A stretch of DNA of 64,000 bases, taken from the NCBI GenBank assembly GCA_026770705.1, contig JANJGN010000039.1, positions 8,680,001-8,744,000 on the forward strand. The letters run 5' to 3'. The position numbers and the translations under genes were made by a program. The stretch is from Isurus oxyrinchus. Its lineage: Eukaryota. This document shows positions 6,662-51,700 of the stretch, one piece after another. How positions within the stretch are numbered: position 1 is the first letter of the stretch; every line of letters begins with the position of its first letter. The notes beneath the pieces were generated by a model that had not been told where the DNA came from, searched no databases, and saw only the letters and a program-made list of their open reading frames with translations.

Positions 6662-6731
6662 ATGGGAGAACAGATACTTCGGCAGATAAAAACCATTTCC
6701 TATCCTATTCTCGCGGCTATTGGTGTTCCTG
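6662..6731 (+). pseudogene. GPR139/GPR142-like GPCR pseudogene: exon 1
   Basis: MGEQILRQIKTISYPILAAIGVP then G|GTAAAA donor at 6732; direct paralog of 45860-45929. Confidence 0.85.
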
Positions 6732-20505: not shown

Positions 20506-20529
20506 TTCCGACATGTCCTGTGATTTCTG

Positions 20530-29234: not shown

Positions 29235-29336
29235 TTAAACAGTGGAGGCCTCTTCTTTCCGACTGAGGGCTTCCAGGTTCAACGATATATAGTCTATCTC
29301 CTCATTGTCATTCGCTAGCACTTCAGAATAGAGTCT
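29235..29336 (-). other. Duplicated ITIM exon (paralog of 30579-30704), possible alternative last exon
   Basis: Same TCATCGCAG acceptor. Reads RLYSEVLANDNEEIDYISLNLEALSRKEEASTV*, and IDYISL still fits the ITIM consensus. Confidence 0.7.
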
Positions 29337-29399
29337 CTGCGATGAATGACACACAGGGAATAATTCCGCTGTGTGTTCAAAACGAGGCGGCCTGGCGTT

Positions 29400-29555
29400 A
29401 GATGTGTGACTGCTGTGAGAGTTGGAGTATACATTATCACTCCTCCTTTCCTGTTGCTAATTTGTCACGAGCTATCCTGATGAGCGTAAGGCGAAAAGCT
29501 GTGACAGTGGGTCTATTTTAGCAGCAGTACTCCAGTCCTGTGCTACTAAATGAGC
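29400..29555 (+). mobile_element. Short Penelope-type terminal fragment with hammerhead-like core
   Basis: CTGATGA (29477-29483), GC-gtaag-GC stem, GAAA (29493-29496) and palindromic AGCT. Confidence 0.4.
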
Positions 29556-29740
29556 ATTTATTGTAAGAACCTAATTGCTAACTATTCTGCTGAGCCTATC
29601 AGATGGACAATTGCCGACGAAAAAATTATGCTTATGGTTCCAACTTGGATATTTGTATCAAAGCGACACTGAAATTGTAACTTTTTGAATAATTTCAATC
29701 TGGATTATTGCCACCAAATATAGAAAAAGTTCATTCAAAG

Positions 29741-29746
29741 TTTATT
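29741..29746 (-). promoter_or_regulatory. Candidate polyadenylation signal of the ITIM receptor gene
   Basis: TTTATT on the plus strand is AATAAA on the minus strand, about 205 nt after the stop codon. Confidence 0.35.
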
Positions 29747-29952
29747 ATAAACACATTCAATGAGCGTAGAATATATTGCAACATGAAAAAGTGCTTCAAG
29801 CTGATATACGTACAAATTTATAACCTCTCAAAAATCTTTAAGTACCACAGTTCATACAGGTCCCGTAAGTGACGAAATTCGCACTTAGTCAAAGTGTTTT
29901 GGGAACATGCAGGCGGAACAGCTTACAGAGTCTAACGCGGTGCAGTGTCCAT

Positions 29953-30036
29953 TCATTGCGGTTTATCCGAGTCAACTCTCACAGGTGCGTAGGTGACATC
30001 TTGAAACTCGCTCTTTGCTAATTCAGAACGCTTCTT
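29953..30036 (-). CDS. ITIM-bearing receptor: terminal exon with second ITIM
   Basis: tttctttccttgcag acceptor, phase 0. Encodes KKRSELAKSEFQDVTYAPVRVDSDKPQ*; VTYAPV is an ITIM. Confidence 0.75.
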   Translation of the reverse strand, partial: KKRSELAKSEFQDVTYAPVRVDSDKPQ

Positions 30037-30154
30037 CTGCAAGGAAAGAAACACAATGGCACAAGTGGGTAAGATCACCTTTCTCTCGATTCGCCTTTTA
30101 TCGACCTCATGCTCTCCTCCCTTCCTCTGGCAATCCATTCAACTTCACCCCGAT

Positions 30155-30410
30155 GTTCTCTCCCCGTCTCTCTCACTCACTTTCTCCCTCTCCCATGCTA
30201 TCTCTCGCTCTCGCTCCCCAAGCCTCATGTTCTGTCTCTGTCTCTCTCATTGATTCCCTCCCTCTCTCACTCTCACATCCTCGACACCCCACCTCCATGT
30301 TCTCTCGCTGTCTCTCTTACTCACCTTTTCCCTCTCCCACGCTCTGTCTCTGTCTCTCTCTCTCTCTCTGCGTCTCCATGTCCTCTGCGTTTTTTCTCTG
30401 TCTCTGCATC
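30155..30410. repeat. Degenerate CT-rich low-complexity tract within an intron of the ITIM receptor
   Basis: Visible directly; source of the spurious Ser/Leu-rich ORFs. Confidence 0.8.
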
Positions 30411-30578
30411 ATTTTTATTTTCTTTGTATTTCCTAGGGTCCTGCTCTATTTTCCTTTACCCCCAGCTACAAACTTTTTGACATTTCCCCCCTTTTAGTTT
30501 TCTTTCTGCCTCTTTACGCCCACTTTTTCATCACACAAATCAAGCACCCACAGAACAGAAATGTAATTTTTTCCCTAC

Positions 30579-30704
30579 TTTAGCTGGAAAGTTGGCGCCT
30601 GGTTCACAGGTGGAGGCCCCATCTTTCCAACTGAGGGCTTCCAGGTTCAACGATGCATAGTTTAACTCCCCATTGTCGTCCTCTAGCACTTCAGAATAGA
30701 ATCC
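30579..30704 (-). CDS. ITIM-bearing receptor: first ITIM exon
   Basis: TCGCAG acceptor, 126 nt, phase 0-0, GTAGGG donor. Encodes GFYSEVLEDDNGELNYASLNLEALSWKDGASTCEPGANFPAK; LNYASL fits the ITIM consensus (I/V/L/S)xYxx(L/V). Confidence 0.75.
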
Positions 30705-30949
30705 CTGCGATGAATAACACACAGGAAATAATAAAAGCAAAGGGAACAAGGTGATCGCAACAGGCGCAAGCTAAATTTAAATTCCTGAAAGCTATATGTT
30801 CTTTCCATGACACAGAGCAGTCTAATACATTGATTTGAACAACATATAATTTGGATTGAGTCATAAGGACATGACGGGAGGAATGTAACAACGAAGATGA
30901 CATTTTGCAGATTTATAATATCATTGGTTAGAGCACTGTGGGCAATTCT

Positions 30950-31300
30950 GGGGAGGCAGTGGCCTAGTGACCAAGTGCTTGGAAAGGTAATTCAGAAGCC
31001 TTGATTAACACTTACTGAATTAACTGATCAGGTTCATCCAAGTTCACTTAATAAATGTGGAAATGGAATATGGCCTCATGAAGCTACCATTGTTTGTTCT
31101 AGCAGCCCATCTGGTTCACGCATGTCCTCGAGGGAAGGAAATCTGACGCCCTCACCTGGTCTGGCCCACCTGTAAGTCCAGACCTAAAAGCAAAGTGATT
31201 GGCCCTTACCTGCCCTCTGAAATGGCCAAGCAAGCCGCTCATTTTAAGGGTGATTTCGGGAGACCTTCATAATGGCACCCACAACCCATGAAAAACTTAT
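30950..31300 (+). mobile_element. tRNA-derived SINE, probably Deu-domain (SacSINE1-like)
   Basis: A-box-like TGGCCTAGTG head, then the body cccatctggttcac..agggaaggaaatctg..cctggtctggcc..gccctctgaaatggcc..caagcc, then a LINE-derived tail. Confidence 0.65.
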
Positions 31301-32222
31301 TTCTGAAACCTAAACACCAGACTTCAGGAATGAGATAATGACCTCAGAAAAAGGGTAAAACATAAGTCCGTTCATTGGTAAATTAAGTGGACATGGGGCT
31401 TCCTTGGAGATAAAATAAACTAAAACAAATGAGTCATCGCTTCGAACTGAGTTTAACTGAGATATGTTTCCACGGCGATGACATTTTCAACATAGTCGAT
31501 AGAGGGAAGACAATATTCCCGCTAACTACTGGACCATCCTACAACAGGGAGTGGACATTATTTGGAGAATTAAATAAAACTGGAGGGCAGAAGAGCATAG
31601 ATTGTTTTTACCTTGTTTTTCATTCAGAGAGTTGTTAGAATCTGGAGCATATCATCTGATAACGTGATTGAAGGCAATCCCGTGCAATGTTTCAAAAAAT
31701 ATTTTGAATGAGGAATTTACAGTGATATGGGCACGGTTCTAGCATGGAGGAGTAAGTGAGGCTGCTAGCCATTGGACGATGGGCAGAACGGCCTCCTCCT
31801 TGGCGGTTCGCTTCAACAATGGTGCGATCATGCACTGACTTATTGTTTCATTTCTTCTACCGAATGTTCCCTTTGAATTTCACTCACCCTTCCTCAGCCT
31901 GCCCCCTGTTCTTTTGACCCTCCCTATGTCACTCTCTAAGTCACTCTCGCGCCTCCTGTCTTTCATTGTGTTTCCAAATTTCAGGCTTTTCATCTTTTTT
32001 CTCGCTCTTGCTCGCTCTCCCACCCTTTTCCTCTGTCTCAATATTCATTCTCTCTTCCTTGATCTGCAATTCCGGGGTTCCCTGTTCACTTTTTGCCCCC
32101 TATACCTCACTCTCGACCTCCCACTCAGAATATCATACCTCCCACTCAGAATATCATATGTTTGCGTCCATTTTTCCGTGAGTTGGCTGAGAATAATAGC
32201 AATATTCAAAATAGGTGCTTAC

Positions 32223-32260
32223 GTTCATCTCCAGGTTGGAGGAACCACTCTGGTTAAGAT
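32223..32260 (-). CDS. ITIM-bearing receptor: cytoplasmic exon
   Basis: tctttccttttcag acceptor, 38 nt, phase 1-0, GTAAGC donor. Encodes (Y)LNQSGSSNLEMN. Confidence 0.68.
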
Positions 32261-32447
32261 CTGAAAAGGAAAGACAAGTGCATTTCTATTCAATTGTTGC
32301 ATGCTTTCATGGAGGGTAAATGGTCTAGCAAGTTCCTTGTCTATTGACGTTAAGCGGTGTTACAGATGTGTTGTTGTTTATAGGAATGACGTGAATTTCA
32401 ATTCCATTTCAAACACATGACTTGCAGGCAGCCAAACACTCCTGCTC

Positions 32448-32653
32448 TGCGGATACTGGTAATCTGAAACAAGAATAGAAAATCCTTGACAAACACTGAG
32501 CAGGTCTGACAGTATCCAAGGAGAGAAAGAAAAAGCGAACCTTTCGAATGCGTGTGGCTCTTTCCAGAGCTCTGAAGAAGAGACATACTGACTCCAAACG
32601 TTAACTGTCCCTTTCTCTCCACAGATGCTGTCAGACCTGCAGAGTCTTTTCCA
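32448..32653. mobile_element. Older palindromic Penelope-type element, related subfamily
   Basis: Imperfect inverted arms (gcaggtctgacag / ctgtcagacctgc) around cagagctctg; contains CTGAAGA..stem..aaacgtt. Confidence 0.6.
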
Positions 32654-33037
32654 CTTTTAAATAGATCCCGTATGTTTGATGTGCCAGCCCACGAATAATT
32701 CGATTCCCATATCATCCAGTTTTCCTGTAACCACGACTTTAATAGAACAGAATACTGGGTGTGTAGTATAACACTGTAAAATGGATGCAGTTTGTTTGAT
32801 GACCCATGAAAAATTTGATCCCCAAAGACCCATGTTTCTTGCAACCAAGTGATCAACAATCTTTAGAAATGTTTCTAATTCTATACTAGGTCTACCAAAT
32901 AAATTCTATTTAAATATAGAAGGGAGAATATTGGAAATAACTACATAAGCCATTCAGACAACCGTGACGGACAGTGTCAGAAAGAGCAATGATCCTTGAT
33001 CAAGAAATACAGTCAATGTCAACATTACTATACTTAC

Positions 33038-33090
33038 ACAGGAGATCACCATCTTGCTGATTTGCCATTCCACTTGCAGACGCTGTACAC
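33038..33090 (-). CDS. ITIM-bearing receptor: cytoplasmic exon
   Basis: tttctttcattttaaag acceptor, 53 nt, phase 2-1, GTAAGT donor. Encodes CTASASGMANQQDGDLL(Y). Confidence 0.65.
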
Positions 33091-33262
33091 CTTTAAAATG
33101 AAAGAAAGTTACTGATTTGTTAGAAGTATTCCCCCCAAAATCATGTTTATTTTCCAATGCACAAGTTTAAGAAAATATTTAACTTTTACTGAATTGAGTA
33201 ATATCGTGTGGTACATTTTGCTCACAACTATAAATACTGGAGAACTAAAGCAATGTCATTAC

Positions 33263-33290
33263 CTCTCAATATTTAGTCTTTTTCTCTTTC
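33263..33290 (-). CDS. ITIM-bearing receptor: juxtamembrane basic micro-exon
   Basis: ttttgctttattgcag acceptor, 28 nt, phase 1-2, AG|GTAATG donor. Encodes (R)KRKRLNIE(R), a stop-transfer cluster. Confidence 0.68.
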
Positions 33291-34294
33291 CTGCAATAAA
33301 GCAAAAAGTGGGAAAAATGTAAAGAACTTGATAAAGTTTTCCAAATGCTCAATATTCTATGGATTTAATGCATTGAAAGGTTTTATGAATTTGCTCCTAA
33401 TGTAATGAGGATATATGACTAATACACATGCTATGGTGTAGGAAACCATGAAATTAACCGATAATATCCACCAACCCAGTTTCCTCTACTTGCGTCTCAG
33501 TATCAATAGCTTCCACTTACAAATTCAGTGCCTGAAGGCAGTAAAATATCCCGTGTGCTCCAGAGCACTTGGGCTACACACATAAATAGCGTTGAAACAC
33601 GTAATTTAGTGTTGGTGTTTATAATCCAGATCTTGACACCTCACGTGATCTAATTGCCTCTTTCTAGCCTTCCCACTTATCACTCTCTCTATTACCCCTT
33701 CGCTCTTGAACACATCAGGTCCGCCTTTATTAATGGTGTTATCAGTTTTGACAAGAAAAGTATAAAAAAACAGAGAGAAATAAAGAGAAGACTTCGAGTT
33801 CTCGCCTTTCTTTGGGTGATGGAAGTGCTCCTGAATTGTTTTACAGAAGGAATGGATCAAAAGCGTTCTCGAAGTGATGCATTTTGTAGATGGCTTTAAC
33901 TTTTCGGAAGCTTCCAGTTAGCTAGTTAAGTTCTGAAAACTTTCGCTGAAGCACCACCATCAGTGATGAAGGCGAATGGCATGGAGTGGATTCTGTAGTA
34001 GGCACAGCTGTGATATGTGGCTGTGCGACTAGGAATGTTTCAGTCTTCCGATTGTTGAAAATGGAACGTGGCACACCAACGTGAAACGACCGGATGAATA
34101 GGGGGAACAGTTTGACATCTGTATATTGGCGAATGGAACAAAGAGCTATCTGCAGTAGGGAAGGTCAAACAGCAGGATCAGTGTGCAAGATGAGTCATAT
34201 TCGACTCGAAATGTTATCTCTGTTTCTCTCTCCGCAGGTGAAATCACAAAAGGCCGTGAAGAGGAACAAAAGTGATGATTTGTATTAGGGTGTA

Positions 34295-34840
34295 GGACAG
34301 AACACAAAAAAGGAGCAGAGGTAGGCCATTCGGCCCCTCTAGCCACCCGAGCCATTAAATAATATTATGGATGATTAGCGCCAGGCCTCAACTCCTCTTT
34401 CGTGCCAGCTCCTCATAGCCCTCAACTCCCCAATATTTCTAAAATCTATCTACATCATCATTAAATACTTTCTACGGTTTAGACTCCACAACTCACTAGG
34501 CTAGAGAATTCCAAACATTCACTACCCTCTGAGAGAGGAAATCCACATGCAGCTCAGTTGTAATTGAGTGGCCCCTTATGCTGTAACTATGTCTCCTAGT
34601 TTGAGATTCTTCCACGAGTGGAAACATCTTCTCAACATTGAAACTGTCAAGCCCCCTCAAAATCTTGCAGGTCTCAATAAGATCACCCCTCATTCTTCTA
34701 AACTCGAATAAATAAAGGCTTAAACTCTTTAGCCGTTCTCGATGAGTCAACACTTCGATCCCAGGAATCAGCCCATTGAATCTCTTTTGAACTGCCTCCA
34801 ATGCCAGTGTATTTATTCATGAATAAAGGGGACAAAAGAT
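34295..34840 (-). mobile_element. CR1 LINE 3' end
   Basis: ORF 34496-34801 reads EAVQKRF..RERLKSLSLY..EFRRMRGDLIETCKILRGLD..SQRVVNVWNSL, followed by the tail gggccgaatggcctac. Confidence 0.88.
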
Positions 34841-35719
34841 TACTAAGTCCACTAACAATGCAACTATGCTATCGCCTCCTCTGCAAAACAGCGAAGTGAA
34901 GCTGTTGCTAGGTCCCACTCAGTGCCCAGAGCAACATGTTTAATTTGAAGGAGTTAAGTGGAGTGGAAGCAAATGTTGTTTAACGTCACGGCGATTTGTT
35001 GGTCCTCCACACAAGGAGAAAGAATGGGGAGGGCTCACAGGCCGCCCTGGTGGCGAATTGACCTACAGAGTGATTGGACGTCCATGGCGAAACGGAAGCA
35101 GAGCCAGAAACTGTTGAAGAGACGGCGGGCATCAGCAGAGCAATGGATGTAGGTAGGGAGTGATGTATAAGAAATAAATAGAATCGAGATAGGAATAATT
35201 AAGCACAGTTGGTTAGGAGTAGTTTGAAACAGTAGGATGAAACCAGATACGTCGCCTTTTTAGATTGGGGTAGAGGTAGATACTGACTATTTAGGGAGGT
35301 TGGGCCATGTGATTGGAAGGCATGGAGGGGAGATCTGCACAGGAGATCAGGTCAGTGACGGCCCTAGATCGGGTGGCTTCATTTTATGAAGGAGTGCCAT
35401 GATCCAGGGGGCGGTAGAAGGCAGTAGTGGAGAGTTGGCCTTTCAACTCTGATATCGATATCCTATCCTGATACAAGAAAATTTGTTACGAGCTTGGCCT
35501 AAATTTTTGACTTTTGGTTTGGAGCTGACAGACCGGAGTACTGCTTGTTCAGCTTAATATCCCTGCAGAGAAATTGAAAAAGCTGCTGTCAATACAACAC
35601 TTCCGAATGAGAAGCTCAATGCAATATTCGGCCAAGGGAAGGTGTCAGATGTAAGTTTGTATGTCCATTTGAATGTTGAGGTCAAAATATATTGAGGCTT
35701 CTTGTCAAATTTCTCCTTT

Positions 35720-36110
35720 CAACTCATCCTCCCATGGGATGTCGTTTTCCCTGGCAATGCCTGAGTTTGTTGCTCATGCCTCATTGCTCTTGAACCGAAT
35801 GTCTAAGCAATTTCAGAGGACATTTAAGCGTTAGCAATATTGCTGTGTGCAGGAGTCACATGTAGGCGAGATCAGGCAACGATGGCCGAGTTGCTTCCCT
35901 AAAGAGCATTACTGGACCATTTTAAAATATATACATATATAAATTGTATTCGATTGTAGATTCCTGGATAGCAGTACTGACACTGACTTAAAATTCTAAA
36001 ATTATTAATAGGTTTACCTCAAACTCCAGCAGCTGCCGTGGTGGAATCTGAGGCCGTGCCACAAGCCTGGGCGTGTGGTTTATGACCCCTGCCGCAAATT
36101 ACACTCTACG
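35720..36110 (-). mobile_element. Decayed SINE of the same type
   Basis: Reverse complement of the body at 31100-31250 (atttcagagg..gagtcacatgtaggc..cttccctaaag), with a B-box-like region near 36040. Confidence 0.55.
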
Positions 36111-36486
36111 CCGGTTTACCAGGAGTTGAAGCGGTGGCCGTTTCTGAAGACAAAGCCAGAGAGGGCAGGTGAGAGCAAACCGTAAGTACCCAAGGAGTGG
36201 GGACATTCGATGGGGTGAGACGAAAGGGAAGGGGCGTGGAATCGAGACGGTCACTGTTGTCCGCCAGTAATGAGGGTGATGTTCCAGTTGCTTTACTCAC
36301 ATCCTCTGCATGAAAGTGACCTTTCAATTAAGACAAGGCCTCATTCCTCAACATGTAGTCATCCATAGCTGCTGACAATTTTAATGCTGCAGTTGAGTTT
36401 AGGGTTGTTTGCAGGTTCCCGCCAACGTTTCCTCCTTTTTTCATGAAAAATGGTAGTTATTTTTTTTTTTCTTGACGAACACTTAC

Positions 36487-36582
36487 TTCTTCTGGCGAAC
36501 AAGCACGCCGTCATTGCCACAAACGTTGCCAGGATTATTTCGACTGCACTCCCCAGGACAGCAATTAGAGGGAAAGTGGTCC
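36487..36582 (-). CDS. ITIM-bearing type I membrane receptor: transmembrane exon
   Basis: CCAG acceptor, 96 nt, phase 1-1, GTAAGT donor. Encodes TTFPLIAVLGSAVEIILATFVAMTACLFARR, a hydrophobic helix followed by basic residues. Confidence 0.72.
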
Positions 36583-36892
36583 CTGGCCCGGGAGAGCAAT
36601 AAAACGTTGAACATGTGTAAGATTAAATACACAACCATGTGTGTGTTAATGTAATTAAGTACATCAATAGCTTTGGAAATTCTTCCCAGCTGATTGTGTG
36701 CTAAACGCCCCTTAGCCAGTGTAAAATCGTGCACCCTAACAGAATCCATTGGACATTTTTTCCGAACAACTTAATAAAATCAGTAGCAGGGGATGTTAAA
36801 CGGGCAGCGTTTAAAATTTCTTCCACGATTTTCCTCTTGGCTGCCTGACCTGGCGGTCTTAACGCCCACATGATAAAGGCTAAACCCACGAG

Positions 36893-37168
36893 AACTACCA
36901 TCTAGAAGGACAAGGGCAGCAGATAGATGGGAACACCGCCACCTGGAATTTCCCCTCCAAGTCACTCACCATCCTGACTGGGAAATATATCGGCCGTTCC
37001 TTCACTATCATCGGGTCAAAAACCTGGAACTCCCTCCTAACACCACACCAGCGGGAGTGCAACGGCTCAAGAAGGCAGCTCACCACCACCTTCTCAAGGG
37101 CAACTAGAGATGGGCAATAAATGCTGTGCCGACACAGCGAAGCCCACATACCCTGAATGAATGAAAAA
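36893..37168 (+). mobile_element. Well-preserved LINE 3' tail
   Basis: ccatctagaaggacaagggcagcaga..caagaaggcagctcaccaccaccttctcaagggcaa..gggcaataaatgctg; same tail as at about 26000-26250 and 62200-62480. Confidence 0.75.
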
Positions 37169-37604
37169 ACAATATTGACGGCAAATGTTCTGGGCTGGTT
37201 TTACTGTTTTTTTTTAATAACACACAGTCCCTAGACAACACAAAGTACTTCGTCTTCTCTTAATTCCGTGATGCAAATTATCAGTCTTGATCCTAGGATA
37301 TTCCTGATAAAGCAAGTGAAGGCAAGAAGCCACGTTATTTAGAAATGAACCAAAACTGGGGCTCAATCAGAATGTCTGCCTTAGATTGTGAAAGCATATA
37401 CAATAGCAGATGCTTCTGGAACTGTTCAGAAAAAGCCAAGTTTTAATTAGATGTTTTTGACAACAACACTTGCACACACACACACAAAAAAGGGACAAAA
37501 TGGTTTGGGACAGTGAAATGGCATGCTGTAGAGTCACGGTGAATTGTACTGTTGGAGTTGGGACAAATTAATTTCAGTGAAATTTTAATGAAATTTCATT
37601 TCAC

Positions 37605-38013
37605 TGCTAGGACGGGACAACAATTTCAATGTCTTTTGTAACAGAGCACCACAGAACCTGTTGTGTAAGCAGCCACATGGAAGTAAGCGATAATAGCGCC
37701 CTTGATGAACTCCAACATTATCGAGCATTACCAAGGCGTAAAGGTTAACAATCTGTGCAGAGACCATGAGAAGGGAAGGTCAGAGACCCGTCGGGCGAGA
37801 ACCAGGTCCCAGATGTACTTTTTAAATCGGAATAGAACTTAGAATACTGGAAGGAAACGAACATCCCCACTGCTTTCAAACCTCCACTGGAGGTGTCTGA
37901 ATGAGTTTGATAAAGCAACAGTCCATTTCTCACGGGTTGGGAGAACAGGCAGTTTGCAAGGAGCACTGTAGAGTCGAAGATAGCTGTGCCTGGGCTGATT
38001 TTGTGGTGAATTC
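37605..38013 (-). pseudogene. Decayed immunoglobulin V-like domain exon upstream of the TM exon
   Basis: ccccttcag acceptor, phase 1. B-strand-like STVLLANCLFSQP, C-strand-like HLQWRFES in another frame, and E/F-strand-like ALVMLDNVGVHQGRYYR (CGC where Cys TGC is expected). The possible phase-1 donor at 37604 gives 409 nt, not a multiple of 3. Confidence 0.5.
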
Positions 38014-38797
38014 CTGAAGGGGTATCATGGCATGCAGAAAATGGAGGAGTGCCTACGTGTGTGAGGAGGCGATTCAAATGCATCCACTAATAGGCAATGC
38101 TCCTTGGTGAACCTTAGTCCATGAGACTGCTCAGACTTGAATTGATGCGGCCAATTATCAGGAGCACGTGTCCTGTTTTGCGGGCATGTAGAGTCCGTTG
38201 GATGATATGCAAGGGGAATGGAAGGGGACAAAGGGAATTCTGCCAGTCCAGTGAGCATTATGGAAATGAGTCAAATAACGGTTTGTGGCGAATCAACCTG
38301 ACTGCTTACTCTCTGCAGTCCATGCAAAACGAACAGTAAGTAAAACGGATAATGAGACACAATGTCCCCAGTTGACGACATCAAATACATTTGGAGATGT
38401 CGACTGGGTTGCAACTAATTTATATTTAAAAAATTAAATTTATATCAGCGAGCGTGTCTTCAAGGTACTAGGGCTATGAAACGTTCATTAGTTGTGACTT
38501 GAGTATTATGTGCATTTCTGGTAACCTCTTTACAGAAAAGATGCAATTCCATTAGACATGGTACAGAGGAAATATAACGAGGATATTTCCAGACCTGGAC
38601 AATTGCAACAATGAAGAAAGACTGGATAGGCTGGAGTCGTTCTTCTTGCAAGAGAGGAGGCTGAGGGGAGATTACATTGAAATATACAGAATTGTGAGCA
38701 GCCTGGATCGAATGGATGTGACGGACCTATTTACTTCAACCAGTGACTAGGGGAATTGGGTTTAACGGGGTTGTTAGGAATTTTAGAGCAGAGAGTG

Positions 38798-39332
38798 TGT
38801 TGGGGAAGAAATTAAGTAAGACTTTATGGTAAGGGAAAATTTATTGAAAAGGAATTAATTACTTTAAATCTCCAGGCAGCCAGTGCTATCATGTATATTA
38901 ACACTTAAAGATTACCAGATGAACTTTGTTCAGGCTTAGGGCCTGTTACCAACAGAAAGGCCTCAGGAGCCACACTGGAGTCAGAGGATGGCTAAGACAT
39001 AGAGTAATTGTGCTCTTCAACAGATAGGGGAAGGACGGATGGTCCTAGTTCAGGTAGGACGGAAGGTCTCTGCCTGGGTAAAAATAGGGACATGCGATGA
39101 ATGTACCTGTTACCAGAGATGCCTGTTTAATGTAAACGGATATAGTGACGAGATGGGAATCTGGAAACTGTTCTTGTACGTGACCAATAATGTATAGATA
39201 TGTTGAACGCTTGTAATTTAGCAGAGTGTGATCTCAAGCTGTATTGAGATGACTCTCCCCTTGCAATTGCTGGAATAAACGTTCGTGACCTGTACCTGAG
39301 GCCCCTGTGGTCGGGTTGTCAAAGTGACAACA
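38798..39332 (+). mobile_element. LTR of an ERV or LTR retrotransposon (535 bp)
   Basis: TGTTG...CAACA terminal inverted repeat, AATAAA near 39275, a tRNA-complementary primer-binding site 3 nt downstream, and interruption of a CR1 fragment. Confidence 0.75.
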
Positions 39333-39335
39333 GAT

Positions 39336-39390
39336 TGGAATAGTCGGTAGGATTCGAACCATGTGGGGAAACCCCGCTTTGGATTTCAAG
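39336..39390 (-). tRNA. Partial, degenerate tRNA-Ser(UGA) copy (3' two-thirds including CCA); extended primer-binding site, not a functional gene
   Basis: The minus strand reads CTTGAAATCCA..GGGGTTTCCCC..GGTTCGAATCCTACCGACTA..CCA, matching the anticodon loop, long variable arm, T loop and acceptor strand of vertebrate tRNA-Ser. The D arm and 5' end are absent. Confidence 0.75.
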
Positions 39391-39914
39391 AAAAACCGCG
39401 GGTACTTGGAGTCAGGAACTCGCTGGGCAAAAGGGTAGCAGAGGCAGAGACCCTCAACTGACTGATTGAGTCACATATAGAAACTTCCAATGCAACATGC
39501 TGTTCTGACTTGATTGGAATATTTAATAGTGCGTGAAAATTGTTGGGTCTCAATGCATTTAAGTTCAATTGTCCTTGCTGTAATCACTATTACGAAATTG
39601 CTAATCATCGAGGACCATATTGACTTTTCAATTCTCATTCTTTCTTCCAATTACCCACAGCCCCATGATTCTCCAAGTTATCAGCGCTGGTCACAATCAG
39701 GTCTTTTGTGCTTTCCCGAGCAGAATTGCCCCAACTGTCATGACAGTACCTTTAGTTAGTTACCTATGCCTCAAGCTCCGGTATTTACCTCCATTGCCTC
39801 TCTAACTCGCTCCCCTCCTTCAAGGCACTGCTTGAACATTACTCCTTTCACCAAGTTGTTGTGCATCTTAACCATTTATCGTTAGCTTGTTGGTTAATCG
39901 TGAGGTTTAGTGTC

Positions 39915-40785
39915 TTGGTCAACAGGAAGATATAGATGGGATGATCAAATGGGCAGATAAGTGGGCGATGGTATTTAACCCTGAAAAATGTGAGGTGATA
40001 CACTTTGGAAGGAGCAATTTGACGAGGAAGTATTCAATGAATGGCATGGCACTAGGAGGTTCTGAGAAAAAATGGACGTTGGCATCTGTGTCCATATATT
40101 TCTGAAGATGGAGGGCATGTTAGTGGGGTGGGGAAAAGGACATATGGGACACCTGCACTTATCAATCGAGGCAGAGATTACGAAAGTAGGGTGGTAATGC
40201 TGAAGTTGTTTAGAACCTTGTTGAGGCCACAGCTGGAGTGTTGTTTGCAGTTCTGGTCGACACATTATAGGAAGGATGTGATTGCACTGGAGGGGGTGCT
40301 GAGGATATTCATCAGGATGTTGCCTGGGATGAAACAATTAAGTTGTGAAGAGAGGTTGGATAGAGTTGGGTTGTTTTCGTTGGAGCAGAGAAGACTGAGG
40401 GGTGACCTGAAAGAGGTGTACAAGTTTATGAGGGGCGTGGACAGGCTGGATAGGGAGCAGCTGTTCCCCTTATTAGAAGGGTCAGTCTTGAGGGGACACA
40501 ATTTCAAAATGGTGGGCAGGAGGTTTAGGGGGGATGCGAGGAAAGCCTTTTTACCCAGAGGGTGGTGAAGGTCTGGAAGATGCTGCCTGGGAAGATGTTG
40601 TATGCGGGTTGCCTCACATCCTTTAAAAAGTAACTGGATGAGCACCAGGCACGTCATAACATTCTTGACTATGGGCCAAATGGTGGCAAATGGGATTAGT
40701 TGGAAAGTCAGGTGTTTCTCACGTGTCGGTGCAGACTCGATAGGCTGAAGTGCCTTTTCTGCGCTTCCTGGTTCTGTGATTCTGT
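39915..40785 (+). mobile_element. CR1 LINE 3' end (relatively young)
   Basis: ORF 40128-40568 reads INRGRDYESRVVMLKLFRTLLRPQLECCLQFWS..ERLDRVGLFSLEQRRLRGDL; ends in ttctgtga repeats. Confidence 0.9.
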
Positions 40786-40914
40786 GAAAGAGGGAGAGAG
40801 AGAGAGAAAAAAATTGAGGCATGATCCGTGATCCTACGGTTACTTCAAAAGCTTGAATTGGGAGAGCGGCGACTCAAGGTGGAAATATATTGAATGATTT
40901 ATTCTGGACGTGTG

Positions 40915-41930: not shown

Positions 41931-44900
41931 ATTAATTCTCCCGGCCGTTCGACATGTGAGTGCGCTGCAAAAAAAAAAGTGCCAGTGTGCTATCACGTGA
42001 GAGGTTAGATCAGGTCTATCCTTGCACGATCGATTGCCAATTTCTGCATAAAATGTCTTTTGAGGCGGAATAAATTAACTTTGCATTCGCTTCCTTGTCT
42101 TTAATGTGCTTGACTCTGCTCTCCACACATGCTGAAATCACTGGATGATTCCTCCATTTGGTTGTGCCGATGGTTTGTTATTTTGTTCAGAATCATGTTT
42201 TCAGACGTATCCATTCATGTGGCAGGGATGTGGTTAGATCGGCCACAACTTGTTGCTCCACCCAAATTGCCCTTGAAGATGTGGAGGTGTCCTATCTTCC
42301 TGAAATTGTCTGTTTCATCTTATTGACGTCAGGGGCATTCCATCAGTACCGAGAAAGAAGCGTGTTAAGCTCAAGGTGATTTCAGATGACTGAGGATTCC
42401 AACTCAGGACAAATATGTTCTTCCGCCGTGGGACTGCTTTTTAGCACTAACTTTTGGAAATTAAAGGCCTTGGACGATTCAAATCTCCTTCCTGTGCCTC
42501 GGCCTTTTCAGCACTCTTTTGAGCCTCGAAGTGGTTTTCGATTTGATGGACAGTTTGGTGCCAGGCTGAGAGACTGGCAGCATTCTCCTCCCGTGCCCTG
42601 TTGTTAAGGCCTCATTGCTTTACGGAGACCTGCAGTGCAGCCTTACACCTTTCTCTTTGGCCGCCCTTTGGACGAGGAATGGTAAGTGACAGAGGCAGGT
42701 ACGGAAAGGCACCCCTTTCCTGAAAAATGTGCCCATTGACTGCCCCAAATCTGCCGCATTTGTGCAGGATTTTGACTGGGGGCCAACACAGGCTTGCCCC
42801 TTTCCCCAATCCTCCATCCCCACAGGGTTTTTCGCCAGAAGCCGGCCTGTGAACCCCCCATTTAAGTACCAGAATTCTGGAGCGCCGGAAGTATGCTTCA
42901 TATGGTGCAGGCACACCACGTTGTTTTTAGCAAGGTCGCATCAGGAATCCATGTACTGTGATCCAGCTTGCAATCTCTGAGTTTGGCCTTCAGATTTCAG
43001 ACATCCTGTAGTGGAGCTTCCTGTGCTCACCGAGTGTGGCGTTTGGTACGTAGGCATTTTCCAGATGAACCGCATGAACTACCCAGGGAACCGGGGCTGT
43101 AATGAACATATTTTCAATGTCAGTCATGCTGCACTTTGCAAGATTGTCGGTTTTGCGGATTTTGCCTTGCCAAGAACCGTTGGAAATGTTTTACGGGCAG
43201 TGAAGTTGTAAAGTTTTCATGAACTTTCTAAGAGGCCGAAAGGTTATGCAAGTCTCGCGCTGATATGAAAGTGATATAAAAAAAACAGTGCCTGGCAGGC
43301 CTTGATCTTCCATCTGCGGGAAAATCCGTGTTTTATTTGCAGAAGTCAGTGAGTGAAACTTGCCAAATGCCGAGCTAGTTTTTGTCAGGCGATGGGAAAT
43401 TTTCCCATCCAGTTAGTGTTCTTGGATTGCATGCTGCCAAGTTAGCAAAACTTCCGTAAAGAACAGAGGAGTGCGTTGTTCAAAGCGACTGTGGTATCTT
43501 GGAGCACGTGACCAGATTTGATGCAGCATCTCTATCCTCAGATATATTGTCAATCGAAGACATTCTGAGTTTGCAGCAAAGCGCTCAGAACGCAGCTGAA
43601 TGTCTCCGGATCCTGAACTATGAGTGTGCATTGGTCCGCGAATAAGACATTCCTCTGTAGCTTTCCAGTAACCTCTGTGCAAGGATTTAATTTTGGCTCT
43701 TTGGAAAGGCTGCCTGTGGTCCTGAAATATATGTGTAATCCTGTGTCAAGCGCTTTGACCGCATGCTTGGAGAATGACTGACAAATGTATGAAAAACAGA
43801 GCTGGGTTGCACATTAAAGTGTATTAAACAGCCTTATTTGGCGCCGCAAGTGACATGAAATAGGTTCACATTGACGACCCACTTTGCAAAAAGAGAGAAT
43901 TACACTGATCGTCTGTTCAGTTCTGTCGCATAATATTGGCTGAGTTGAAAAGTTTATTGACCAATAAGGGAGAGTAGGGTCATGAGCGTTTAAGTGTATG
44001 ATGTGCGGAAAGTGGCGCAAAGGGCCGGCGGAAGACGCTGATTGGCGGAGAGCGGGGCTGAGGCCACGATCAGATAAACCATGAGTTTTCCGAGTTGCAG
44101 AACATGCTCAAGGGGCCGAATGACCAACTGCCATTAAATACTCTGGTTTTGGTGGGTGTTTGAAATGCAGACCACACCAAAGCCGGAGGCGCCGTCGATT
44201 CGGGTTCATTGTAATCAGTGCATCCATGTGCTAATGATTGTCTGCAGAAGACGTTTGATGGTTAAGAGTTAAATGTTAAGAGTGGAACAGCCGCCGAGCA
44301 ATGTAGTCTATATATCCCATTCTTCTATTACAAAAAAAGCATTTTTCATTCATGTCAACCATCTCTCTGGATGCAGTATGTGAGAGGTTGAGCAGGAGCA
44401 TTGCATGGCGTGGGGAATCGTTACTGAGGGGGTATGGGGTCGGATTGTCTTCAACACATTATTTTGAAATATTTTGGTTGAGAAAAGAAAAGCCTACAGC
44501 ATACAATTTCTATTGCTCATCAGGTCACCACCAACACCAGCCTTCCCGGTCCTATGGTTACGTTTATAATTTCCAGGCAGAATGGTGCAAATTTATGTGC
44601 AACCACCCACAATGTAGGCCAAGAATCTGACCGAAATGTCAGTGCCCAAGGAATCCACGGAAAGATCTGGGCAGCGTATGAGTTCGCTCTGGAAGATTTA
44701 ATGAGAAAGACATCCATCAGACATGTGCCCAGTTTCAGCAAAGACTTGGTCCGGAATCACAAAACAGTGATGAACATTTACAATTGCCCCACTTCTTCTC
44801 GTGGCGGTTCAGGCTGATTGCGTTCTCTCGAATCATTTTGATATAAATTAGTAACGATTTGATTCCCAACATCGCCCTGTGGGTCAATCATTTCCCGCCG

Positions 44901-45859
44901 TGACTATCCAGTATGGGATCTACCCGTTGCTCATTAAAATATAGCCCCTTCAATTGTATTCCAATGTTGGCCGTTTCAGTTCGAAACGGTTCCTTTCAGA
45001 AGGAGAGCAACTGACGTAACCTGTTTGTTCAATGACTGAAACTAATTGATTTCTTTAGGGGACATGAATGCCCTCCTGGCGATTTAGCTGCTGTCTACTT
45101 AACAGTTCCTCTGAATGTCACATTTCATCTTTTCCAACAGGCTGGTGTATCTGTTTCAACGAGAGTTAGCGCTTCTCACCGAAGATATAATTTGCTGTAC
45201 TTCATCAGATACGGGCCATTTACAAACCCATTTTCGAAGCTCTCGTTTTCCGATGTACGTTTACTAAAATGCCCTCGGATGAACAATATAAATTTCTGTC
45301 CTTCTTTCAATTCATCAATGAGGGCAACGCTGGCAAGGCCAGAATTTATTGTCCAACTATAATTCCCCTTGTGAAGTGGGTGGTGAGCTGCTACGGTCTT
45401 TGTGGTGTTGTTACATTCACGTTATTATTAGCAGGGGTTGGGGGTTTGTGGTCCTTTAATTTGACACGGAGACAGTGAAGAAACGGCGATATTTTTGAGA
45501 ACCAGGGCGATGAGGGGCTGGGAGAGGAACCTTCAGCATGTGGCATTCCCATGATTATTTTACCTTTGTCTTTCTAGATCGCAGCGGCCGTGAGTATGAT
45601 TACTTAAATAAAGGGCTTCATGTTATCCACAGTTAACAGATTTTCTCTGTTCCCTGCTACGAATGCTGTCGCGCCAGTTTTACCCTGGTGCTCCAGATTA
45701 ATTAGTGTGGCAACTCCTTCCGAATCGCCTGTGATTTTGACGTGTTTCTCTTATTTTCCTGAAATGAATTTAAAGAAGAAGAGGATTTCTACCTTTCAGC
45801 TCACACGTTCATTCCATGTTGTGCATCCATCTCTGCAGGAAAGACATCTCCACATGAAG

Positions 45860-45929
45860 ATGGGAGAACTGATACTTCGGCAGATAGAAGCCATTTACTA
45901 TCCTATTCTCGCGGCTATTGGTGTTCCTG
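45860..45929 (+). CDS. Class A GPCR, GPR139/GPR142-like, intact copy: coding exon 1
   Basis: ATG at 45860 (in-frame alternative at 45854) reads MGELILRQIEAIYYPILAAIGVP, the first half of TM1, then G|GTAAGA phase-1 donor at 45930. It joins exon 2 as G|TT (Val), restoring the TM1 GxPxN motif (GVPVN). Confidence 0.88.
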
Positions 45930-48587
45930 GTAAGAGCCTAAATACAATCATTGCCTGAATAAATGGATGTTCTCAAACGCCGGTTCCGATAACATGGAAT
46001 CATTTATTTACAGATGGAAAGTTGTCAAAGCAGCAATGTATGTTTAACCATAACGTTAACACGGTCTTCCTGTTGCTCTCTCTTACTCTCCGTGGTCTCC
46101 ACTGCTGACACCTTATTCTTGCTTTACGGAATGTCATATAACAGGGTCGGCTCTGCAATAATTATCATTATCAGGTGCAAACCGAGTTTGAATTTGTAGA
46201 AAACACAAACTGTGAAAAATCTGTGCAGAAGCAAATTCGCATTCTGCAAAATTCTGCTTGAAATACTTGAAGCCGTTGCTAATTATTTTCATCCATCTTC
46301 CAATATTTAAAGGAACGGAATCCCTGTCAAATCACATACATCTTACCACAGCGATACTTTTACAAATCTGTATACAGAGAGGATATCTGGAAATCTGGGT
46401 GAAACAGATTACTATGTTTTCTGAAGACATTCCGATGTCTTAGTCACTTGTCTATTGAAATGCATGCATTTCTACACTCTCTAATATCGATCACCTTAAT
46501 GAATTTACATGAAGTGCAGTCACCGAAGTAACGCAAAAGGTGGCAGGCAATTTTTGGTCCGGAAGGTTCCACAAGCAGCAAGTTGACAATGACCAAATGA
46601 TATTTTTTGTAGGCTTTAGCAGGACGCAAGTGGCTACGACAATGTTGTACGAGGAAATAATCGCAAGCGTTCTTGCACGTTTACACTTTCAATCGATTTG
46701 ACATCTGTTCGAAAGTTATTACGTCTGATGGTGCAGAATTACTTCACTACGGCAATAGAGCATTAGCCGAGAATTCTGTACTCAACTACTGACGCCGGGC
46801 GTAAGTAGTCAAACATCTATCTCAGCACGCAGATTGCTAACTGAAACATACGTGGCCCGATTTCGGAACACCTGTGCTTCTCGAGTAGTTAACTGGTTCT
46901 CCTTATTCTGCTCATTTCAATTCCTAGCCCTCCACTTCCTGTTGTTGTAAAACCTGCTTCCTCTTCTAACTAATTTACATTCAGAATTGGAGTGAATTTA
47001 TAGTAAGCATTGTCGGACTCCCCTTTGGCTTTGGGAAAATCATATTGTCACACTAAATGGTGGCACTGGCAGAAAGACATAGAAGCATAGGAAATCCGAG
47101 TAGAAGTTGGCCACTTGGCCGCAAGGGGGGTGCTCCACAACTCAAGTATATCCCGGCTGAAATAATGCCTTCACGACATTCCATGCAATATCTCATATCT
47201 TCGGATGCATTGAATATTGAGAAATCAGTTCATAGGCGCCTTTAATATACTCAGTGACTGCCCATCTGCCGAGGGTGCAGGACATAATTTCGATCATTTA
47301 TCCCTCCCTGAGTGATGCAATTATCCTCATCTCATTTGTAAATGCAGTCCTCTTATTCTGATATTGTTTTTCCTGGTTTTAGACACACCCACCAGGGGAA
47401 ACATCCATGCAAGATCTACACCACCGAAACGTATAAGAACGGTGAATGCTTCAGTGAGATCATTTCTCATTTACCAGGGCGCCAGAAAGCAGAGGACGAG
47501 GGTCGTCAATGTCTCCACATAGGACAATCCCAGCTAAATACCAGTAATCCAAGAGGTAATCTGTTGAACATTCCTTGTCGCAGAGTTACAACATACCTAA
47601 TGAAATCTACACCAAAGCAGCAAAGTAGAATGCTTGACCAGCACCACAAACATCAGCATAAAGAGCTCACATGAAAATTGTAGAGTCGGGGATACGTTGG
47701 GCTTGGGGTTACAAATTATGGTTGTGCACAAATCAGCTCCAGCCAATGGTCCACAGTGCGTCGTGAATGTGCACTTTTGAGTTTTTGATCAAGGTGAAAC
47801 CGACCCCATTTAGCACAATGGTTGTCTCACACAAAACGATTGAGGGAAGCCCCAATGTGAAGGTGGAATTCGTCTGCACGAGGACCGTGCCCTGGTCAAT
47901 CATATCCATCATTGAATGGACACATGTATCTGTGGCGTGTAGGTTGGTAGAGCGAATTCAATTAGGTTTTTGCACCTGTTTGTTTTCCTGTCTTACAATT
48001 CACCAGGATAAGCCGTGTTGTTATGCATGATCGCTGCTGCTGAGACATATGACAGATGTTAGCAAAGTTCCTTCGTTTGTGCATTTGACCTCGAAAGCCT
48101 GGAACGGCAAGAGCAGGAGAGGCAGGAGAACACTCTTAATTACAAAATCCTTTCCAAGTCACACACCACTCTGACTTGGAGATAAATCACCGTTCCCTGA
48201 CTGTCACTAGACCAAAAACCTGGAAATCGTCACTCGTAGCATTGTGTTTGTATCCACTTCACATGGGCTGCAACACTTTAAAACCGTTACTGTCAAGAAG
48301 AATTAGTGCAAAAGGAAATAAAAGTGCTACTCTTGACAATATAAGCAAAGAAAATAAAATGTTGCATGGTGAAGAATCTATGAATGTTGATGTCCTTTTT
48401 CTATTGAAATGATGGCCCGGAAGATTCTTTTGTTCCGGCTCAACAAAGATTAACTACAAAATGCATATTTAAATGTAAATTATTTTGGAGAACACTGGTC
48501 CCAAACTGAGAACGTATGTTTTGAATTCACTTCTAAATATCTAAATATTTAAGCAAAAGGATTGGCTGGAAATTTCGACCGAAACTC

Positions 48588-48702
48588 GCACCCCTCCCCC
48601 TCACCCCCCCACCACCCCCCCCACTACCCCCCACCCACCCAACCCCCCCCCCCCCCACCACCGCCTGACTCCCCCAGAACTCCCACCTCCATCACCCACC
48701 CA
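48588..48702. repeat. C-rich low-complexity tract
   Basis: Expanded relative to the paralog at about 11632-11685. Confidence 0.8.
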
Positions 48703-51700
48703 CTTCAAAAATGCCGAATACGCACGAAGATCAATGACGTGCATCGGGTATAATGTCGTCACGTACCTGAATCTCCCAGTCGCAGATGGGGAACGGGAGG
48801 GCCCACCTTTTAAAAGTTGCTAATGAGCAAGTTATTGAGTTTGTCAATGACACAATGGCATCTTTTATTCATTCGTGACTTGCACTTACCGTGGCCCTGA
48901 CGAGAGAAAAAAAACTTTCCGGAAGCTACCATCTGACGGCAATCGCGCGGAAGAGACGTTCTGCCTCCGGGACCATGACTAAATGTAGCAACAGATTGTG
49001 CTGGGGAAGGTGGGATTGTGCTGCCTTCATGCCTACTTTTCTCTGTTTTGTTTCTTGCCTGAGTTTCCAACGAAAAATAGTTTTGCAAAAACAGTTTCTG
49101 AGACCAGGTGGTCTTGAGCTTGCAGCCGTATCGACTTTCTGTTCACTGCATTACATTCTGCCGCACGATGTTCAGGCTTTCACTACCGATTGGACGCGGA
49201 CCCCATTTTGGCTCCTTCATTGCCTCCTCCCCGAGAGAATTTAATGAATTGTGGGGCGGGAGATGGTCTAAGGGAGGTTGAGTAGGAAAAGTGCTAATTT
49301 TACATTTCTCTAATTTCACGCTGCCGAATAATGTAAAATCCAGGCCGCTGTCTACTTAATGTAATGTTTCTTTATGATCCAAAATCGGGATTAGCGTTTT
49401 GAACCTGCACCGGAGGATGTGTGTCACTTCTCTAGTGTAAATGCTGCTACCGACCCTCAACAATGCGTCAGAACCAAAAACACAGTTCAGTGAATCACAC
49501 TCGGTATTGCGTTCTCCACAACATTCAGATATCCACTGAAAAGAATTAGCCCTTAAGTTTCTGTTTTGCATGCAAAAGATGCCATAGGAAATTGTTATTT
49601 TGTACTTACATTGCGAATAGATCATTGTTGTTCAAGTGATATGGATTTGGGACCGTGGAGGAAACTTCACCGCTCTGCAGTTCTTCAGACTCGGATGGTT
49701 ACAGTAACCAAACCAAGAGGCACATAAACCAAAGTGCACTGCACCTGCTCCATTTTCCTTTCCCAAACAGCAAGTCAATAACACGTCAGAAGCAGACTGC
49801 ATTTGCAGGGAGCAATGGATAATTCTATAGCATGTATACATGTTCATATCTCTAGTTTATTTAGCAGGGAATAATGTTGATAATATATTTGATGTCTGTA
49901 TAATTAATTTGCTAGCTAAGTAGTGGATAATCTTTTGGATTGGGGACTATTTCATTCGGTAGATAATGGTTCGTTCATTCCTTGGGCATTTCAATGTTTA
50001 ATTCGGAGGAATATTCTGGGAATATAATGATAATTTATTGGATAATTGTTTTGAAAATTAATTTGTCCAAACATTAGCTGCTTCAATATATAATTGTTTA
50101 AATTACTGCACTGTTTACATTGTTTCCTTATTTACAGTGCTGACCAGTACAGTTTCAAGTGAGGATATTTTGGCTAACCATCTTATCATCACTCACAATA
50201 GCGCATAGTTAATGATTTTGGGTAAATGTTATCGGGTAAATGAAGTTCAATTTTCATTTTTGTTATTTATTTTAAGTTGTTTTATTTTGTTATTTATTTT
50301 CAGCTGCAATTGTGTCAAACTAGCTTTGATTAATAATGTTTCCACCTTTTCCAGTGATTCCTACATGGTCAACAGAAACTCAAACTTTAATTTTTATCCA
50401 TTACCTGGCGTTTCCAAGGCTGTTTGTGATTATCATTGACAGCTGCATTAAGGCAATCAATGTTTGCTGCTTGCATTCGAGTTAGAGAATTGTCAACAGG
50501 AGGCTACCAAACTGGGTTGTGTATGTAACACGAATAGATTTTTTTCGTGGTCAAAGCTTGCCAACTTGCAATCTGATTCAGAAATGTTAAAAACTGTTTA
50601 TCTTTATCCGGCTAATTCGCCTTACTTCATTTAGAGTTCATCTGAATTATTAACGAACAACTTACTGAAATAATATGATCCAAACTGTTACTTCACCACC
50701 CTGTTTATAGACATCAATGCATTTTTGTTTCCCTAAGTTCAATTTTGCGAAAAGTCTACGTTCAGTCTGCAACCATGTTGCATAGCCTTGAGAACAGCTG
50801 GTACTTGAAATAACTCTATATCTATTCATCCCATTATTTTGAGAATGTGCATTATCTTCTTTCCTAATCTGTGCCTCCCGAATCTCACCGGAGTTTTCAG
50901 TCGGAAACCAATTCTGCACCCTTTCCAGAGCCATGAATCCTATCCTCTATCATCGCCACCAGACGTACAAACAAAATTTCGGCAATGTGCTGATTACCTA
51001 CATTCGATAATAATTCAGGCTGGAGGTATTTAAAGTGCTTTGAAATGCAGTAAAGTAATTTAATAAACGTGTGCATCAAGTTATTACATATCTGGCAGCT
51101 ACAAATTCGTTCAGTGAGATTCACTTAGCAAATCTGTTCTTAAAAATTCAACTGGACCTTTACTAAGTAGACAACAGAATCATAATGCAACCGTGATTAT
51201 CTGAGTCTCAGGTCAATTTCATTTGACTTATATAGATCACATATTTTCATCAGTAATCAGTATAAATGTCTGAAGTTAATCTTCTGTATAGTGATTCAGC
51301 AGTGAATCACTTCGCTAATTCTCTGAAAAGGTTCCTGCATTTTGAAAAAAAAAAGAAACATGCATTTTATGAACAAATGCTAAAATTCATGGATTTTATG
51401 AGCCTGGCCAATCTGAAATGAAGTAAGCTTCAGAGGATATTAATTTAAACATGGATGTGTTAGGTGCTAGGTCTTTATCGTCAGGTAATCGACAATTTGT
51501 AATTTCACTTTTCTGAACACATATTAGTCTACAGACTGAAATCGATGTGCCCATCACAGTCAATCTTTACCACGATCTTCTGTACTTGGTGCCAAGCAAA
51601 ATTAAATTTTCAGCTTCACCTTTCAAATCACTGATACTGTCCTTGAAAGACAAGCAATTCCCTTCTGCCCTTTCCACAACAAAATGATTTGTTCTGCAGC

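What the first reader, a model, noticed from the sequence alone, without database searches (positions are those of the whole stretch)
36487..38013. Decayed Ig ectodomain but intact signalling half, with an acidic residue in the TM helix
Seen: the only ectodomain candidate (38013-37605) needs frameshifts and has YYR in place of YYC, while all six downstream exons and their splice sites are clean. The TM helix contains a Glu (GSAVEIILA). Established: acidic TM residues mediate pairing in the ITAM adaptors DAP12, FcR-gamma and CD3. Inference, speculative: this is either a pseudogene decaying unevenly, a gene whose real ectodomain exon lies elsewhere (for example in the gap), or an ectodomain-less ITIM adaptor.
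Basis: partly seen in the sequence, partly recalled or inferred. Interest (0 to 1): 0.7.

Follow-up and report, generated by a model that had tools for sequence, protein, structure and literature searches.

The report
Headless duplicate of shark inhibitory receptor
This is a copy of only the back half of a shark immune 'brake' receptor gene, whose parent with signal peptide and outer domain lies elsewhere in the genome, so it is likely an ordinary pseudogene and not a new signalling adaptor.

Summary
The sequence facts hold, but the adaptor idea does not. Window 29,241-40,910 is an 11.7-kb piece (about 87% identical) of a LILR/LRC-like ITIM receptor gene on contig C48. It starts about 460 nt after the parent's only Ig exon, so leader and ectodomain are missing; three more such copies lie on C39. 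The TM Glu is derived: the parent and a basking-shark ortholog have Ala. Spliced contigs over the tail exons carry the parent's letters (31 of 40 listed differences). TM+tail diverge at intron rate (10.8% vs 12.2%; pN/pS 1.03), and sister copies show early decay. The 'V exon' is neither the ortholog's second domain nor a family domain; its breaks are shared by all five copies, and it is at best an old V-like fossil. Against my reading: clean exons by chance had P about 0.04. By-product: a shark C2-Ig receptor cluster, with TTYH1 on C39; this scan noted that family before on other DNA.

The parts
29241..40910 (-). Segment homologous to the C48 parent gene (from the intron after its Ig exon to a partial copy of exon c5); 5'-truncated duplicate
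   Evidence: blastn 85-87% in blocks 39270-40910, 37014-38987, 29241-37046
37605..38013 (-). V-like pseudo-exon candidate; broken in all 5 copies; not the gene's own ectodomain
36487..36582 (-). Transmembrane exon (phase 1-1)
   Evidence: 72% identical to the ortholog's TM region
36539..36541 (-). TM Glu codon; Ala in the parent and in the basking-shark ortholog; Glu in all four C39 copies
36120..36143 (-). 24-nt candidate exon c1; not in the ortholog protein, donor GA in the parent, GC in one C39 copy
33263..33290 (-). Cytoplasmic exon c2
   Evidence: matches ortholog residues 264-272
33038..33090 (-). Cytoplasmic exon c3
   Evidence: joint to c4
32223..32260 (-). Cytoplasmic exon c4
   Evidence: joints on both sides
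30579..30704 (-). Cytoplasmic exon c5 with first ITIM-type motif (30665-30648)
29953..30036 (-). Last coding exon c6 with second ITIM-type motif (29997-29980) and stop; AATAAA at about 29746
29241..29336 (-). Partial tandem copy of exon c5 behind the gene, also present in the parent; 3' end of the duplicated segment

Best explanation
The window holds a 5'-truncated genomic duplicate of a shark LILR/LRC-like ITIM receptor gene: it has the TM and tail exons but not the parent's leader and C2-Ig exons, and it is likely a non-functional, unprocessed pseudogene whose TM Glu probably arose by drift. Shown: the parent on C48 has a split leader (31 + 36 nt), a 297-nt C2-Ig exon, TM with Ala, and the same tail; homology to the window starts about 460 nt after that Ig exon; four such headless copies lie on C39 inside larger 97.5-99% identical duplicated blocks. 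Inferred order: the ortholog's second Ig domain was lost from the parent lineage; an 11.7-kb piece was copied into a GPCR array (or a whole copy lost its 5' end later); Ala became Glu; the block was then amplified. Inferred function of the parent: type I receptor whose phosphorylated ITIMs would recruit SHP-1/SHP-2 (established for LILRB/KIR, untested here). Without promoter and signal peptide the window copy would make no surface receptor.
For: Five copies of V-candidate and TM in the genome. Parent leader and Ig exon intact; Pfam Ig_3 E 2.5e-4, below the curated cut-off; best PDB match LILRB2, E 9e-4. Ig exon search: 34 matches on C48/C75/C197/C129/C215, none on C39 (213 candidates, 150 scored). 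Family HMM finds nothing at E<1 in 74, 47, 37 and 37 kb around the four C39 copies; the parent's 5' 5.8 kb matches them only in short repeat-like pieces. Ortholog XP_078390326.1 is leader-D1-D2-TM(Ala)-tail. Window vs parent: TM+c2-c6 46 of 425 nt differ (10.8%), introns 1208 of 9870 (12.2%); pN/pS 1.03 against an intron null of 0.85, where 28% of 149 overlapping null windows reach 1.03. Sister copies: distal ITIM Tyr to Cys in one, c1 donor GT to GC and a junction Tyr to Phe in another. Spliced contigs in 4 of 4 runs (at most 2 samples) join tail exons and carry parent letters: 31 of the 40 listed differences match C48, 2-3 match other C39 copies; three junction insert strings match C48, not the window. 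Chicken CHIR pseudogenes arose the same way, from duplication blocks cutting through genes (PMC1458963, passages).
Against: A neutral simulation over half the pairwise distance gave only P = 0.04 that TM+tail stay free of stops, frameshifts and GT/AG hits; this suggests the exons were under selection for part of that branch (for example a full-length copy truncated later). Amino-acid changes specific to the window (17) are not clearly more than those specific to the parent (12), and immune receptors often show pN/pS near 1 while functional. The Glu is present in all four C39 copies. Short ATG-initiated phase-1 exon candidates exist upstream (8 listed in 11.4 kb), none tested. The search for lost exons reached about 36 kb 5' of the TM exon in the window and less in two sister copies.
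Confidence: 0.86

Rival explanations
1. The C39 copies are expressed from a captured promoter as ectodomain-less ITIM adaptors whose TM Glu pairs with a basic TM residue of an activating receptor and damps it.
For: All TM and tail exons are open with canonical splice sites in the window; chance of that about 0.04; Glu lies inside the hydrophobic stretch, 16 residues before the stop-transfer Arg, and is shared by four copies.
Against: Glu is absent from parent and ortholog; no leader exon in the copied segment; no purifying selection signal; a sister copy lost an ITIM Tyr; the spliced contigs listed carry parent letters.
Confidence: 0.05
2. The C39 ancestor was a functional V-TM-ITIM receptor whose V exon (37605-38013) decayed recently.
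For: Phase-1 acceptor, 88 open codons, YYC and a J-like end in the C48 copy; the C48 copy scores 64 against one light-chain-type V (null mean 27.6, max 45 of 274); only one, in-frame, indel between copies and pN/pS 0.38-0.45 in the frames proposed (about 3% of null windows are that low, frames chosen after the fact).
Against: The same stops and frame breaks are in all five copies including the parent, so decay predates the duplication; no leader upstream; ortholog and three neighbouring family regions (170 kb) have only C2 domains; the window copy scores 33, and close relatives of that V score 24-42.
Confidence: 0.05
3. Some of the four C39 copies are uncollapsed haplotypes or assembly duplicates, and the real 5' exons lie further away on an unplaced piece.
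For: Copies are 97.5-99% identical over tens of kb; the contig is repeat-rich.
Against: All four share the same 5' breakpoint and flank; no close copy of the Ig exon exists anywhere but C48 (next best 44%).
Confidence: 0.04

Closest known systems
Inhibitory LRC receptors: human LILRB1/2, LAIR1, inhibitory KIR, mouse PIR-B, chicken CHIR-B
   Same: Parent and ortholog: type I, one or two C2 Ig domains with the PKP-L-S...Y-C...W...S-S-P signature, uncharged TM, ITIM tail; family profile matches PIR-B, LILR, KIR and OSCAR over the full domain; split leader with a 36-nt mini-exon (as LRC trait recalled, not from a call).
   Different: The window copy has no leader or Ig exon and has a TM Glu; the tail is split over 5-6 small exons; orthology to any mammalian gene was not tested; FCRL5 is the top summed-score hit of the profile, so FcR-like affinity is not excluded.
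Chicken CHIR pseudogenes made by block duplication (PMC1458963)
   Same: Incomplete receptor genes copied when duplication borders cut through a gene.
   Different: Here the fragment sits on another contig than the receptor cluster, inside a GPCR tandem array, and was amplified fourfold.
Basking shark 'immunoglobulin superfamily member 1-like' XP_078390326.1
   Same: 74% identical D1, same leader, TM and tail exons.
   Different: Has a second Ig domain and a stalk that were not found in the parent (best genome match 41%); lacks c1; Ala where the window has Glu.
ITAM adaptors DAP12, FcR-gamma, CD3 (acidic TM residue)
   Same: One acidic residue in the TM helix.
   Different: No signal peptide, no short Cys-bearing ectodomain, residue not conserved, ITIM-type tail.

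Membership tests
LRC Ig-like receptors (LILR/KIR/CHIR), window copy as a gene | 1-4 C2-type Ig domains (PMC6557307, passage) | tested here: not met
   No family-HMM hit in 74 kb; genome search shows none on C39
LRC Ig-like receptors, window copy as a gene | Signal peptide (type I receptor) | tested here: not met
   Parent leader exons have no homolog near any C39 copy
LRC Ig-like receptors, C48 parent | C2-type Ig domain of LRC type | tested here: met
   profile covers positions 1-97 of PIR-B/LILR/KIR/OSCAR but only about 3-79 of FcR-type chains
LRC Ig-like receptors, C48 parent | Signal peptide, uncharged TM, cytoplasmic ITIMs (inhibitory type) | tested here: met
   matches ortholog
LRC Ig-like receptors | Linkage to LRC marker genes (TTYH1, CNOT3, PRPF31; PMC6557307, passages) | tested here: inconclusive
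   TTYH1-type gene at the start of C39, 8.6 Mb from the window (human TTYH1 E 4e-13, TTYH2 6e-6); CNOT3 on C30; PRPF31 search rang nowhere; placement of C48 unknown
LRC Ig-like receptors | Activating partners with NxxR TM | tested here: inconclusive
   A rough scan of 170 kb of C48 listed 7 hydrophobic exon candidates, none with NxxR; most of the cluster was not scanned
LRC Ig-like receptors | Phylogenetic clustering of domains with LRC rather than FcR/FCRL | not tested
   No reference sequences were available as files
ITAM/ITIM transmembrane adaptors (DAP12, FcR-gamma, CD3) | Conserved acidic TM residue | tested here: not met
   Ala in parent and ortholog
ITAM/ITIM transmembrane adaptors | Signal peptide plus short ectodomain | tested here: not met
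ITAM/ITIM transmembrane adaptors | Pairing with a basic-TM receptor | not tested
   Needs expression and co-precipitation
V-set Ig domain (37605-38013) | Open frame with B-strand Cys, C-strand Trp, F-strand YxC | tested here: not met
   Motifs fall in different frames; stops in all three; YYR in the window
V-set Ig domain (37605-38013) | Similarity to V domains allowing frameshifts | tested here: inconclusive
   Profile of 9 Ig/TCR V: control level. Pairwise: 1 of 16 V queries gave the C48 copy a score (64) above all 274 nulls, the window copy none clearly; 12 further queries 24-42, DNA scores within controls

The most novel reading that the evidence does not exclude
The headless C39 copies are expressed as ectodomain-less ITIM stubs whose new TM Glu lets them dock on basic-TM activating receptors: an inhibitory adaptor caught at birth by truncation of an LRC-like receptor, with a fossil V(J) exon in the intron where the second Ig domain once was.
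Probability: 0.05. Interest if true: 0.8.

Novelty: new member of a known kind. Interest (0 to 1): 0.22.

Why it matters
As found it is ordinary birth-and-death evolution of a paired-receptor family, and a warning that a charged TM residue in a gene fragment means little without orthologs. The by-product matters more: a large cluster of C2-only, LILR-like receptor exons in a shark, with TTYH1 on the contig of the window, whereas Akula et al. 2014 (PMC4016189, passages) found no C2-only LRC homologs in sharks. That family was already noted by this scan on other DNA, and I recall (not retrievable) a 2021 Immunogenetics paper reporting an LRC-like gene in elephant shark. If the adaptor reading were true it would show how an inhibitory adaptor can arise from a receptor.

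Tried and rejected
Homolog searches with exon c5 and with the 88-codon open frame of the V candidate found nothing; the 1.84-billion-protein search returned 2 bacterial-type repeat proteins with summed weak hits, rejected as chance. The PDB search with the YYC piece hit only designed repeat proteins. The C27 match (E 5.1) is chance. CD28/PD-1 family membership was considered (PMC11599192, parts 1-2 of 6 read) and dropped when the C2 exon was found. A candidate exon at 35562-35534 has an in-frame stop in all copies. The ortholog's stalk micro-exon was not found in parent or window. No RNA holder was listed for the gene; this is no evidence on expression. In one search no contig with the window's own letters was listed over exons c5/c6, but tables were cut (40 of 130 differences, 32 of 2111 pieces shown), contigs drop rare variants and RNA status of the runs is the tool's guess, so silence of the C39 copies is not shown. 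PRPF31 search rang nowhere. Literature: 8 searches listed no paper describing this shark family; subscription papers and supplements were not seen.

Full report
Setting. The window is G000:C39:8,680,001-8,744,000 of a 4.98-Gb genome. Its Ig/TCR V genes and the closest named protein mark it as a shark.

Observation. On the minus strand lie a TM exon (36582-36487) and six small exons down to a stop at 29953, all open with AG/GT ends; c5 and c6 carry ITIM-type motifs. The TM Glu is at 36541-36539. The stretch 38013-37605 has an acceptor, 88 open codons, then stops in every frame, and YYR.

Paralogs. V candidate and TM each match five places: the window, three more on C39 (97-99%) and one on C48 (89-90%). 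All five share the V candidate's stops and frame breaks; only C48 keeps YYC. The lesions are therefore neither assembly errors nor recent. The four C39 copies have Glu; C48 has Ala. One sister copy has lost the distal ITIM Tyr, another has a GC donor at c1 and a junction Tyr changed to Phe.

The real ectodomain. Upstream of the C48 copy are a 31-nt ATG exon, a 36-nt mini-exon and a 297-nt phase 1-1 exon that encodes a C2 Ig domain. It hits Pfam Ig_3 weakly (E 2.5e-4, under the cut-off) and LILRB2 best in the PDB (E 9e-4). It found one named relative among 17 candidates, basking-shark XP_078390326.1 (74% identical), built as leader-D1-D2-stalk-TM-tail with Ala at the Glu position and without c1. 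Homology between window and C48 spans 29,241-40,910 and starts about 460 nt after the Ig exon. The Ig exon has 34 matches in the genome, on C48, C75, C197, C129 and C215, none on C39 (150 of 213 candidates scored). A family HMM finds nothing at E<1 around any of the four C39 copies, and the parent's 5' 5.8 kb matches them only in short repeat-like pieces. At the place of the window's N stretch two paralogs carry a GATA microsatellite. The ortholog's D2 has no close match in this genome (best 41%, none at the parent locus; 150 of 239 candidates scored), so the parent probably has one Ig domain.

The V candidate. It is not D2 and not a family domain (13-17 against controls 15 +/- 2, positive controls 88-138). 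Pfam, PDB and two large protein searches gave nothing credible, and a 9-sequence Ig/TCR V profile scored it at control level. In pairwise frameshift-aware alignment 1 of 16 V queries, a rearranging light-chain-type V on C12 (type named from recall), gave the C48 copy 64 against a null maximum of 45 in 274, with C, D-E and F strands in register across two frame breaks; the window copy scored 33. Twelve further V queries, among them six close relatives, scored 24-42 and DNA scores were within controls. pN/pS in the proposed frames is low (0.38-0.45) but on small counts and chosen frames. I put an old V(J) fossil at about even odds; either way it was dead before the duplication.

Selection. Window against parent: TM+c2-c6 differ at 46 of 425 sites, introns at 1208 of 9870; pN/pS is 1.03 (35 N, 10 S) against an intron null of 0.85. 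Polarised with the ortholog, 17 residues are window-specific, 12 parent-specific, 16 other, 95 shared. Against a purely neutral history, the chance that these exons stay clean over half the pairwise distance was 0.04; a full-length copy that lost its 5' end later would explain this.

RNA. Four runs with the same species label (at most two samples; RNA status guessed by the tool) were laid on 29,700-33,400. Contigs join c5/c6 in three runs, c4/c5 in three and c3/c4 in three, at the predicted borders. Of the 40 differences listed (of 130), 31 match the C48 copy and 2-3 match other C39 copies; 7 of the 9 others lie at indels where alignments differ and 2 match no copy; the c5 pieces differ from the window at 12 sites in three runs, the same number as C48; junction letters are C48's. 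The parent is thus spliced. Whether C39 copies are silent is not shown.

Mechanism. Shown: truncation, amplification, derived Glu, spliced parent. Inferred: loss of D2 in the parent lineage; copying of an 11.7-kb piece between two units of a GPCR tandem array (3728-20506 and 42891-57699, 78-82% alike); Ala to Glu before the fourfold amplification; no product. From established knowledge: the parent would act as an inhibitory receptor through SHP-1/2.

Comparison. A profile of 14 cluster domains matches PIR-B, LILR, KIR and OSCAR over the whole domain and FCRL5/FcR over part of it, FCRL5 having the top summed score. A TTYH1-type gene lies at the start of C39, CNOT3 on C30; both are LRC neighbours in mammals (PMC6557307, passages). 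So the parent is LRC-like; membership is likely but untested by tree. PMC4016189 (passages) reported no C2-only LRC homologs in sharks. PMC1458963 (passages) describes CHIR pseudogenes from duplication blocks. Three earlier notes of this scan describe the same kind of shark family on other DNA; nothing was noted near this window.

Verdict. An ordinary 5'-truncated pseudogene copy (0.86); adaptor reading 0.05; interest 0.22.

Noticed in passing
window 52747-53700 (+) and 15855-16761 (+): Two single-exon-type class A GPCR (7tm_1) copies in an old tandem duplication (3728-20506 vs 42891-57699, 78-82%); the first is an open 317-codon frame, the second is frameshifted. They resemble the shark-expanded 'GPR139-like' genes (name recalled).
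   Followed up: partly
G000:C48, C75, C197 (L067-L128): Large cluster of intact LILR-like C2 Ig exons: 34 and 77 matches to D1 and D2 queries; genes with 2-3 or more domains, at least two others with ITIM-type tails.
   Followed up: partly
G000:C48:2,494,100-2,511,300 (L006, L007): The parent seems to have lost the ortholog's second Ig exon and stalk, has Pro in the leader and Asn at the start of the TM, yet its tail exons are spliced in RNA contigs: a possible one-domain (LAIR1-like) receptor.
   Followed up: partly
G000:C39:1,500-78,000 and C56: TTYH1-type gene at the start of the window's contig, partly repeated on C56; TTYH3-type on C15, third paralog on C22. It is followed by at least 90 kb of a 36-nt minisatellite with very long open frames.
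   Followed up: partly
window 30698-30648: Exon c5 has two tyrosine motifs nine residues apart (YxxV then YxxL), an ITAM-like spacing, conserved in parent and ortholog.
   Followed up: no
G000:C12:45.80-45.92 Mb, C8:87.14 Mb, C13:46.90 Mb, C2:179.17 Mb (L148-L154): Small family of light-chain-type V segments with a 12-spacer signal; most copies carry stops and three are dispersed.
   Followed up: no
G000:C49, C38, C100, C326 (L129, L130, L138): Multicopy germline-joined VJ-type exons with FGxG ends, many near-identical copies.
   Followed up: no
window 40056-40800, 38450-38740, 34320-34820, 20583-21281: Remnants that read like CR1-type LINE pieces (recognised from translation, recalled; Pfam gave no hit for the two tested); a SINE-like repeat adjoins the 5' breakpoint at 40910.
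   Followed up: no
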